From the NCBI RefSeq assembly GCF_003334335.1, contig NZ_QOWQ01000086.1: a DNA stretch of 2,993 nucleotides; one strand, given 5' to 3'. Source of the stretch: Escherichia coli. GTDB taxonomy: Bacteria; Pseudomonadota; Gammaproteobacteria; Enterobacterales; Enterobacteriaceae. Below, one piece after another: positions 317 to 2,101 of this stretch (position 1 is its first letter; every line of letters starts with the position of its first letter). The position numbers and the translations under genes are program-made. The notes beneath the pieces were generated by a model, which had not been told where the DNA came from, did no database searches, and saw only the letters and a program-made list of their open reading frames with translations.

Positions 317-2101
317 CAGGATACCAGCCCGGATACTCTCGTCGTTACTGCTAACCGTTTTGAACAGCCGCGCAGCACTGTGCTTGCACCAACCACCGTT
401 GTGACCCGTCAGGATATCGACCGCTGGCAGTCGACCTCGGTCAATGATGTGCTGCGCCGTCTTCCGGGCGTCGATATCACCCAAAACGGCGGTTCAGGTC
501 AGCTCTCATCTATTTTTATTCGCGGTACAAATGCCAGTCATGTGTTGGTGTTAATTGATGGCGTACGCCTGAATCTGGCGGGGGTGAGTGGTTCTGCCGA
601 CCTTAGCCAGTTCCCTATTGCGCTTGTCCAGCGTGTTGAATATATCCGTGGGCCGCGCTCCGCTGTTTATGGTTCCGATGCAATAGGCGGGGTGGTGAAT
701 ATCATCACGACGCGCGATGAACCCGGAACGGAAATTTCAGCAGGGTGGGGAAGCAATAGTTATCAGAACTATGATGTCTCTACGCAGCAACAACTGGGGG
801 ATAAGACACGGGTAACGCTGTTGGGCGATTATGCCCATACTCATGGTTATGATGTTGTTGCCTATGGTAATACCGGAACGCAAGCGCAGACAGATAACGA
901 TGGTTTTTTAAGTAAAACGCTTTATGGCGCGCTGGAGCATAACTTTACTGATGCCTGGAGCGGCTTTGTGCGCGGCTATGGCTATGATAACCGTACCAAT
1001 TATGACGCGTATTATTCTCCCGGTTCACCGTTGCTCGATACCCGTAAACTCTATAGCCAAAGTTGGGACGCCGGGCTGCGCTATAACGGCGAACTGATTA
1101 AATCACAACTCATTACCAGCTATAGCCATAGCAAAGATTACAACTACGATCCCCATTATGGTCGTTATGATTCGTCGGCGACGCTCGATGAGATGAAGCA
1201 ATACACCGTCCAGTGGGCAAACAATGTCATCGTTGGTCACGGTAGTATTGGTGCGGGTGTCGACTGGCAGAAACAGACTACGACGCCGGGTACAGGTTAT
1301 GTTGAGGATGGATATGATCAACGTAATACCGGCATCTATCTGACCGGGCTGCAACAAGTCGGCGATTTTACCTTTGAAGGCGCAGCACGCAGTGACGATA
1401 ACTCACAGTTTGGTCGTCATGGAACCTGGCAAACCAGCGCCGGTTGGGAATTCATCGAAGGTTATCGCTTCATTGCTTCCTACGGGACATCTTATAAGGC
1501 ACCAAATCTGGGGCAACTGTATGGCTTCTACGGAAATCCGAATCTGGACCCGGAGAAAAGCAAACAGTGGGAAGGCGCGTTTGAAGGCTTAACCGCTGGG
1601 GTGAACTGGCGTATTTCCGGATATCGTAACGATGTCAGTGACTTGATCGATTATGATGATCACACCCTGAAATATTACAACGAAGGGAAAGCGCGGATTA
1701 AGGGCGTCGAGGCGACCGCCAATTTTGATACCGGACCACTGACGCATACTGTGAGTTATGATTATGTCGATGCGCGCAATGCGATTACCGACACGCCGTT
1801 GTTACGCCGTGCTAAACAGCAGGTGAAATACCAGCTCGACTGGCAGTTGTATGACTTCGACTGGGGTATTACTTATCAGTATTTAGGCACTCGCTATGAT
1901 AAGGATTACTCATCTTATCCTTATCAAACCGTTAAAATGGGCGGTGTGAGCTTGTGGGATCTTGCGGTTGCGTATCCGGTCACCTCTCACCTGACAGTTC
2001 GTGGTAAAATAGCCAACCTGTTCGACAAAGATTATGAGACAGTCTATGGCTACCAAACTGCAGGACGGGAATACACCTTGTCTGGCAGCTACACCTTCTG
2101 A
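257..2101 (+). CDS. btuB: BtuB, TonB-dependent outer-membrane vitamin B12 (cobalamin) transporter; also receptor for E colicins and phage BF23
   Basis: Frame of the 212..2101 ORF. The true start is the internal ATG at 257 ([20 protein letters not shown]...), giving 614 aa plus TGA stop at 2099-2101. The translation matches my memory of E. coli BtuB along its length, including the signal peptide, the TonB box DTLVVTA and the C-terminal ...LSGSYTF with terminal Phe typical of outer-membrane beta-barrels. The upstream TTG 212 / ATG 215 lie inside the riboswitch leader and would give a non-signal-peptide N-terminus. Confidence 0.97.
332..352 (+). other. btuB: TonB box of BtuB (DTLVVTA)
   Basis: Seen: DTLVVTA at residues 6-12 of the predicted mature protein. 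Established: this is the canonical BtuB TonB box that contacts the TonB C-terminal domain. Confidence 0.9.

What the first reader, a model, noticed from the sequence alone, without database searches (positions are those of the whole stretch)
2034..2048. Two in-frame ATGs for murI (2034 and 2046)
The six-frame ORF begins at ATG 2034 ([10 protein letters not shown]...) but a second ATG lies at 2046 (MATKLQ...). I favour 2046 because it has a better-placed SD-like GAGA and matches the MurI N-terminus I recall. The sequence alone does not exclude use of 2034, which would add 4 residues.
Basis: partly seen in the sequence, partly recalled or inferred. Interest (0 to 1): 0.2.

Follow-up and report, generated by a model that had tools for sequence, protein, structure and literature searches.

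The report
murI start codon: second ATG
The glutamate racemase gene murI of E. coli starts at the second of two nearby in-frame ATGs (window 2046); the first (2034) is a recent silent mutation in the overlapping btuB gene, missing from 13% of E. coli genomes and from almost all related species, so this is an ordinary, already-settled annotation question.

Summary
The window is the E. coli K-12 btuB-murI-rrnB P1 region. Both ATGs exist (2034-2036 and 2046-2048), in frame, below an in-frame TAG at 2010-2012.

ATG 2046 is the real start:
- It is intact in 5426/5426 complete E. coli genomes and in 80/80 representatives of other Enterobacteriaceae species.
- RefSeq starts the 285-aa protein there.

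ATG 2034 is a derived C-to-T change at the wobble base of a btuB Tyr codon (TAC to TAT):
- 79/80 other species have ACG there.
- 712 of 5426 E. coli genomes (13%) also have ACG.
- The four codons it would add evolve as btuB sequence, not as MurI sequence.

The GAG pairing is only about -2.7 kcal/mol, no better than background in this window.

New context: public SMRT-Cappable-seq data place a murI-only transcription start at window 2018. That is 8 nt after an invariant extended -10 motif (TGGTAAAAT, 2002-2010) inside btuB, so both ATGs lie in or at the end of a 28-nt leader.

Minor use of ATG 2034 in K-12-type strains is not excluded. I could not reach any direct N-terminal or initiation-profiling data.

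Ordinary and already known; low interest.

The parts
2046..2048 (+). Functional start codon of murI (ATG). It is built from btuB codons tAT Ggc.
   Evidence: RefSeq CDS start. ATG in 80/80 species loci and 5426/5426 E. coli genomes. The btuB Tyr codon here is TAT in 79/79 species, while ten other invariant Tyr columns in btuB are mixed TAT/TAC. In 54/80 species it is the only ATG/GTG/TTG between the upstream in-frame stop and the conserved protein.
2034..2036 (+). Upstream in-frame ATG. It is a derived, polymorphic by-product of a synonymous TAC-to-TAT change in btuB Tyr, and would add MRQS to MurI.
   Evidence: ACG in 79/80 species, ATG only in Escherichia sp. E1V33. In E. coli the T allele is in 4714 genomes and the C allele in 712, summing to 5426. 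SD pairing is -0.9 kcal/mol with a 2-nt spacing.
2036..2039 (+). Weak SD-like GAGA, 6 nt upstream of ATG 2046 (btuB Glu codon GAG plus A).
   Evidence: Duplex with the anti-SD is -2.7 kcal/mol (-3.0 with the ancestral C allele), 44th percentile of windows. The Glu codon is GAG in 79/79 species, whereas other invariant Glu columns of btuB are mixed and mostly GAA.
2046..2903 (+). murI coding sequence (285 aa plus stop), glutamate racemase.
   Evidence: RefSeq annotation. NCBIfam NF002034 scores 512.7 bits against a cut-off of 408, and TIGR00067 scores 323.9 against 146.65. Identical to PDB 2JFN chain A.
257..2101 (+). btuB coding sequence (614 aa), which overlaps murI by 56 nt (2046-2101) in a different frame.
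   Evidence: RefSeq annotation. NCBIfam NF007926 scores 1112 bits. The 56-bp overlap is stated in PMC8921622.
2010..2012 (+). In-frame TAG that closes the murI reading frame upstream, so only 2034 and 2046 are candidate ATG starts.
   Evidence: Read directly from the sequence. Present 33 nt upstream of the start in 55/80 species.
2002..2010 (+). Extended -10 promoter motif TGGTAAAAT inside btuB, the probable murI-specific promoter.
   Evidence: Only TGNTANAAT match in the window; the motif alone is not significant, with 0.41 expected by chance. CGTGGTAAAAT is invariant in 79 of the 81 aligned sequences (window plus 80 species). A mapped TSS lies 8 nt downstream.
2018..2018 (+). Primary transcription start of a murI-only mRNA. 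It gives a 28-nt leader to AUG 2046 and 16 nt to AUG 2034.
   Evidence: SMRT-Cappable-seq Supplementary Data 1 of PMC6131387 lists TSS NC_000913.3 4165400 (+) with 121 reads and a transcript covering only b3967. The coordinate offset (window = genome minus 4163382) was verified.
1997..2045 (+). Block of strong synonymous-site constraint in btuB upstream of the murI ORF (promoter plus 5' leader of murI).
   Evidence: Codon entropy at invariant-residue codons is 0.26 bits here (7/13 fixed) against 1.1-1.3 bits over btuB 257-1996 (2/124 fixed). Mann-Whitney p = 5e-8.

Best explanation
murI is translated from ATG 2046, giving the 285-aa glutamate racemase that begins MATKLQ. This start lies 56 nt before the end of btuB, in another frame. 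It is served by a weak GAG Shine-Dalgarno element with a 6-nt spacing in an A/U-rich, weakly structured leader. A murI-specific mRNA starts at about window 2018 from an extended -10 promoter (TGGTAAAAT, 2002-2010) embedded in btuB. ATG 2034 is not a conserved feature. It arose within E. coli by a C-to-T transition at position 2035, which is silent in btuB (Tyr TAC to TAT) and lies in the murI leader. At most it adds a dispensable MRQS extension to a minority of MurI molecules in strains that carry it. Shown: the sequence facts, conservation, polymorphism, annotation and the public TSS. Inferred: that 2046 is the dominant start in K-12 itself, and that the motif at 2002-2010 is the promoter.
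For: Annotation and structure: RefSeq starts murI at window 2046 in all five RefSeq records inspected, and PDB 2JFN has the 285-aa sequence.

Conservation: ATG 2046 is present in 80/80 species and ATG 2034 in 1/80. In E. coli, ATG 2046 is intact in 5426/5426 genomes, while ATG 2034 is present in 4714 and replaced by ACG in 712.

Predicted proteins: every listed homologue starts at the Met equivalent to 2046.

Coding signal: the four codons 2034-2045 read TRQF/TRQL/TRQH/TRQS/TRRF and so on in the murI frame, but YETVY/YETAY in the btuB frame, so they evolve as btuB only. In 54/80 species no other start codon exists upstream in frame.

Codon choice: Tyr2045 is TAT in 79/79 species and Glu2036 is GAG in 79/79, against mixed usage elsewhere in btuB.

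SD pairing: -2.7 kcal/mol at a 6-nt spacing for 2046, -0.9 at 2 nt for 2034.

Transcript: TSS at window 2018 with 121 reads covering murI only.
Against: I could not reach any direct protein N-terminal or initiation-profiling data for MurI. Both ATGs are present on the murI-specific transcript. The SD for 2046 is no stronger than background. In predicted ensembles AUG 2034 is more exposed than AUG 2046, with P(unpaired) 0.75-0.89 against 0.41-0.45. Thermodynamics therefore does not exclude initiation at 2034 in K-12-type strains. PDB 2JFN is a recombinant construct, and annotation may simply follow conservation.
Confidence: 0.9

Rival explanations
1. Dual initiation: in E. coli strains with the T allele both AUGs are used. 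This would give a major 285-aa MurI and a detectable minor 289-aa proteoform with an MRQS extension, and no distinct function.
For: Both AUGs lie on the murI-only mRNA (TSS 2018). AUG 2034 is predicted to be largely unpaired. The leader is A/U-rich and weakly structured. The first ~23 residues lie outside the conserved racemase core. Transposon insertions in the overlap are tolerated in one orientation (bioRxiv 10.1101/2025.12.01.691526). An extra 4 residues should therefore be harmless.
Against: Almost no SD pairing for 2034 (-0.9 kcal/mol, 2-nt spacing). The AUG is absent from 13% of E. coli genomes and 79/80 other species, so any such isoform is dispensable. murI is not among the new start sites in the TetRP supplementary tables held; this is weak negative evidence.
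Confidence: 0.25
2. ATG 2034 is the principal start in K-12-type strains, making MurI 289 aa as in some older or automatic annotations.
For: It is the first ATG of the ORF. The 289-aa form is deposited on 22 contigs. AUG 2034 is predicted to be accessible.
Against: All the evidence listed for the best explanation. In addition, curated RefSeq for MG1655 uses 2046, and the protein record NP_418402.2 is a second version, which fits an earlier start revision (inference). The C allele at 2035 is 97% conserved across species.
Confidence: 0.04
3. The T allele at 2035 was selected for its effect on murI expression rather than being neutral. For example, it might weaken a leader stem (G2024-C2035 becoming G-U) that partly sequesters the SD-like GAG.
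For: Position 2035 is C in 77/79 species although it is a synonymous btuB site. RNAalifold pairs 2018-2024 with 2035-2042, and that stem drops from -3.5 to -1.2 kcal/mol with T. The T allele reaches 87% of E. coli genomes.
Against: The stem is weak in both alleles and is not the MFE fold. There are no compensatory changes (0 of 26 pairs). The leader fold is not more stable than shuffled sequence (z = +0.77). A frequency of 87% in a clonal, unevenly sampled collection does not show selection.
Confidence: 0.1

Closest known systems
E. coli K-12 murI (b3967; glutamate racemase, RefSeq NP_418402.2 / WP_000201820.1; PDB 2JFN)
   Same: The window is 100% identical to MG1655 over the 401 nt (1900-2300) spanning the junction. 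The CDS from 2046 equals the annotated 285-aa protein and the 2JFN chain.
   Different: Nothing differs. The 289-aa reading is simply the longest-ORF alternative, which appears in a few deposited annotations.
btuB-murI overlapping gene pair of Enterobacteriaceae (56-nt out-of-frame overlap)
   Same: murI starts inside the last 56 nt of btuB. The arrangement, and the ATG built from the btuB TAT-GGC codons, are conserved in 80/80 species loci.
   Different: The pair is usually described as a btuB-murI operon (for example PMC10802341). Here public long-read TSS data show a murI-only transcript starting inside btuB, and btuB transcripts ending inside murI.
Alternative in-frame translation starts that produce N-terminal proteoforms (the class surveyed by retapamulin-assisted ribosome profiling, bioRxiv 10.1101/520783)
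   Same: Two in-frame AUGs 12 nt apart on one mRNA.
   Different: The upstream AUG is not conserved, lacks an SD, and is polymorphic within the species. murI is not mentioned in the main text of that study.

Membership tests
Glutamate racemase MurI (NCBIfam NF002034 / TIGR00067; Pfam PF01177) | Whole-protein profile score above the curated cut-off | tested here: met
   NF002034 scores 512.7 bits (cut-off 408) and TIGR00067 scores 323.9 (cut-off 146.65). Homologues carry PF01177. The profile aligns only from residue 24 of the 285-aa protein, so it cannot discriminate between the two starts.
Glutamate racemase MurI (NCBIfam NF002034 / TIGR00067; Pfam PF01177) | Two catalytic cysteine motifs of cofactor-independent racemases (CNTAS and GCTHFP) | tested here: met
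   CNTAS begins at residue 92 and GCTHFP at residue 203 of the 285-aa translation. Their catalytic role comes from established knowledge of the family and was not tested here.
Functional translation start site (bacterial, SD-led) | Start codon conserved in orthologues | tested here: met
   ATG 2046: 80/80 species and 5426/5426 E. coli genomes. ATG 2034 fails the same test: 1/80 species, and absent from 712 E. coli genomes.
Functional translation start site (bacterial, SD-led) | Shine-Dalgarno complementarity 5-9 nt upstream | tested here: inconclusive
   For 2046: a 3-bp GAG match, -2.7 kcal/mol, 6-nt spacing, not above background. For 2034: -0.9 kcal/mol at 2 nt. The GAG codon is fixed in 79/79 species.
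Functional translation start site (bacterial, SD-led) | Direct detection of the N-terminus or of initiating ribosomes | not testable with these tools
   The primary papers are not held. The TIS and N-terminomics supplements contained no murI entry or were not held.
Dual-start gene producing N-terminal proteoforms | Both start codons maintained by selection | tested here: not met
   The upstream AUG is derived and polymorphic. The sequence between the two AUGs evolves as btuB only.
Extended -10 sigma-70 promoter (for the murI-internal promoter) | TGn immediately upstream of a TAnAAT-like hexamer, with a primary TSS 6-8 nt downstream | tested here: met
   TGGTAAAAT at 2002-2010. 5'-triphosphate-enriched TSS at window 2018 with 121 reads. 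The motif is invariant in 79 of the 81 aligned sequences. Promoter activity itself was not tested.

The most novel reading that the evidence does not exclude
In the 87% of E. coli genomes that carry the T allele, the new upstream AUG is used at an appreciable level. K-12-type strains would then make a 289-aa MurI proteoform that B2/ST131-type strains and all other enterobacteria cannot make. Alternatively, the same substitution tunes murI translation from its own short leader.
Probability: 0.15. Interest if true: 0.3.

Novelty: already known. Interest (0 to 1): 0.1.

Why it matters
It matters little. The correct murI start is already in curated annotation, and the extra four residues would sit on a non-conserved N-terminal tail.

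The practical value is as a clean worked example. A longest-ORF call (289 aa, still present in some deposited annotations) is wrong because a silent mutation in the overlapping gene created a decoy ATG. Wobble-base conservation in the overlapping frame identifies the true start.

The side observations may help people who engineer btuB deletions without killing murI. They show that murI has its own promoter inside btuB, and that btuB transcripts end at a conserved hairpin inside murI.

Tried and rejected
1. Primary literature on MurI purification and N-terminal sequencing (PubMed 8098327, 8226972, 1355768; PMC204615) is not held. My recollection that the purified enzyme begins at the second Met therefore stays unverified and is not used as evidence.

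2. Initiation-profiling and N-terminomics supplements:
- TetRP and TRAINSPOTTER have no murI entry.
- Ribo-RET and the PDF-inhibition study have no held supplements.

3. SD strength as the discriminator. It favours 2046 but is not above background, so I rejected it as decisive evidence.

4. An RNA structure that hides one AUG:
- The RNAalifold hairpin 2012-2050 has no compensatory changes.
- The 1990-2075 fold has z = -2.2.
- On the real murI transcript the leader is not structured (z = +0.77).
- The candidate stem is only -1.2 to -3.5 kcal/mol.
I rejected structure as a discriminator.

5. Rfam finds no family in 1950-2250.

6. The two-hexamer promoter scan gave only a 9/12 match at 1873-1900. 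It is not supported by the synonymous-site constraint, which starts at 1997.

7. I looked for a second TSS dataset. The held supplements of the Cappable-seq 2016 and Kim 2012 papers contain no entry for this position.

8. The family profile cannot help, because it starts at residue 24.

Full report
**Identity of the window.** The 401 nt around the finding are 100% identical to E. coli K-12 MG1655 and occur in all 5426 complete E. coli genomes. RefSeq annotates three features relevant here (window coordinate = NC_000913.3 coordinate minus 4163382):
- btuB at window 257-2101
- murI at window 2046-2903 (285 aa)
- 16S rRNA (rrsB) downstream

The two genes overlap by 56 nt in different frames, a known arrangement (PMC8921622). 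NCBIfam confirms both identities. The glutamate racemase profile aligns only from residue 24 of MurI, so family homology cannot choose between the two ATGs.

**The observation.** ATG occurs at 2034-2036 and 2046-2048, in frame. The mechanical ORF runs 2034-2903, reading [10 protein letters not shown]... (289 aa). It is closed upstream by TAG at 2010-2012. Both ATGs are formed from btuB codons: Tyr TAT plus the G of the next codon (tAT Gag and tAT Ggc). Whether each ATG exists therefore depends on a synonymous T/C choice in btuB, which makes a clean comparative test possible.

**Comparative test across species.** I examined 80 species-representative loci. They span Escherichia, Salmonella, Citrobacter, Enterobacter, Klebsiella, Raoultella, Kosakonia, Kluyvera, Cedecea, Franconibacter and others.
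- The downstream ATG is present in 80/80 loci.
- The upstream position is ACG in 79/80 and ATG only in Escherichia sp. E1V33.
- E. albertii, E. whittamii and the other non-K-12 Escherichia representatives have ACG, so T at 2035 is the derived state.

**Codon-level contrast.** I built a codon-aware alignment of btuB from 79 species.
- Ten invariant Tyr columns upstream of 1900 are mixed TAT/TAC.
- Tyr2045 is TAT in 79/79 species, which makes the ATG.
- Tyr2033 is TAC in 77/79.
- The Glu codon that supplies the SD-like GAG is GAG in 79/79, whereas other invariant Glu columns are mixed and mostly GAA.

**Coding signal upstream of 2046.** In the murI frame, the four codons before ATG 2046 read TRQF, TRQL, TRQH, TRQS, TRRF, TRPF and similar. 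In the btuB frame the same stretch reads YETVY or YETAY. The stretch therefore evolves as btuB, not as MurI. In 54/80 species there is no other ATG/GTG/TTG between the upstream in-frame stop and ATG 2046.

**Predicted proteins.** Every listed homologue begins at the Met equivalent to 2046.

**Polymorphism within E. coli.** I used 55-mers with position 2035 at base 28, so that every 28-nt megablast word must contain the SNP.
- The T allele (ATG 2034) is in 4714 genomes and the C allele (ACG) in 712, including an ST131 strain. The counts sum to exactly 5426.
- A 53-mer in which every word must contain ATG 2046 matched 5425 genomes.
- The one exception (DETEC-P881) has an intact ATG 2046 and a SNP at 2056.

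So the downstream ATG is universal, and 13% of E. coli genomes manage without the upstream one. RefSeq starts murI at the equivalent of 2046 in T-allele and C-allele genomes alike. In the protein collection the 285-aa form is on at least 1000 contigs and the 289-aa form on 22. PDB 2JFN is the 285-aa sequence, though it is a recombinant construct.

**Shine-Dalgarno and structure.**
- Pairing with the anti-SD is -2.7 kcal/mol for 2046 (GAG, 6-nt spacing) and -0.9 for 2034 (AAAGA, 2-nt spacing).
- However, -2.7 is only the 44th percentile of all 20-nt windows in this sequence.
- An RNAalifold hairpin pairing 2012-2024 with 2035-2050 has no compensatory support and is weak.
- On the murI-specific transcript the leader is not structured.
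- AUG 2034 is predicted to be more exposed than AUG 2046.

Thermodynamics therefore does not exclude some initiation at 2034.

**Context found on the way.** Synonymous-site variation in btuB collapses from 1997 onward:
- Codon entropy is 1.1-1.3 bits over 257-1996, with 2/124 columns fixed.
- It is 0.26 bits over 1997-2045, with 7/13 fixed (Mann-Whitney p = 5e-8).
- It is 0.14 bits in the overlap.

The constrained block outside the murI ORF contains an invariant CGTGGTAAAAT. This is an extended -10 motif (TGGTAAAAT, 2002-2010) and the only such match in the window.

SMRT-Cappable-seq data (PMC6131387, Supplementary Data 1) list a primary TSS at NC_000913.3 4165400. That is window 2018, 8 nt downstream of the motif. 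It has 121 reads, on a transcript that fully covers only murI. The same table lists a btuB transcript running from 4163398 (window 16) to 4165572 (window 2190), covering only btuB.

murI therefore has its own promoter within btuB and a 28-nt leader. ATG 2034 lies in that leader, 16 nt from the 5' end. This explains the nucleotide-level constraint. It also explains how an essential gene can sit behind a B12-repressed one.

**Verdict.** ATG 2046 is the murI start (confidence about 0.9). ATG 2034 is a recent decoy, silent in btuB and dispensable. Residual uncertainty concerns only whether it is used at a low level in T-allele strains such as K-12.

I could not obtain any direct N-terminal or initiation-profiling evidence. 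The matter is already settled in curated annotation, so the finding is ordinary.

Noticed in passing
window 2002-2018: An invariant extended -10 motif TGGTAAAAT (2002-2010) lies inside btuB. A public SMRT-Cappable-seq TSS (NC_000913.3 4165400 = window 2018, 121 reads) starts a transcript that covers only murI. murI therefore appears to have its own promoter, although the pair is usually called a btuB-murI operon.
   Followed up: partly
window 1997-2045: btuB synonymous sites are almost frozen in the ~50 nt upstream of the murI ORF. Codon entropy is 0.26 bits against 1.1-1.3 bits in the rest of btuB (p = 5e-8). This is consistent with the murI promoter plus leader being embedded in btuB coding sequence.
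   Followed up: yes
window 2160-2186 (3' end mapped at about 2190): A conserved hairpin GAGATCCGG(C)...(G)CCGGATCTC lies inside murI codons 39-47. 94% of cells are paired across 68 distinct sequences, and two pairs show compensatory changes (A-U to G-C, C-G to U-A), beating 500/500 shuffles. It sits just 5' of the btuB transcript 3' end listed at NC_000913.3 4165572. It may be a btuB terminator or 3'-end stabiliser embedded in murI, with no clear U-tract.
   Followed up: partly
window 1973-1975: btuB Tyr codon TAT is fixed in 79/79 species, just upstream of the constrained block. It is one of only 2 fixed columns among 124 before 1997. Unexplained.
   Followed up: no
window 6-191: The cobalamin riboswitch of the btuB leader (RefSeq feature) matches Rfam RF00174 over the full model. 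It scores only 18.5 bits against a gathering score of 31.5 (E = 0.008), so it was missed at the gathering threshold.
   Followed up: partly
window 2949-2976 (with the A/T-rich stretch 2927-2948 upstream): A near-consensus sigma-70 promoter TTGTCA-16-TATAAT (11/12) lies upstream of the 16S rRNA gene. From my own knowledge this is rrnB P1 with its UP element.
   Followed up: no
protein collection: The 90%-identity cluster holding MurI (285 and 289 aa) also holds full-length 614-aa BtuB proteins, and its representative is a BtuB. This is probably a clustering artefact of the overlapping genes or of fused calls.
   Followed up: no
E. coli genomes: In two genomes the btuB-murI junction (C allele) lies on a record labelled as a plasmid, and two genomes carry two chromosomal copies of the junction.
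   Followed up: no
window 2046-2101; bioRxiv 10.1101/2025.12.01.691526: TraDIS data report transposon insertions tolerated in the btuB/murI overlap with a ~10-fold orientation bias. This suggests the first ~18 MurI residues can be replaced or truncated, which fits the racemase profile starting only at residue 24.
   Followed up: no
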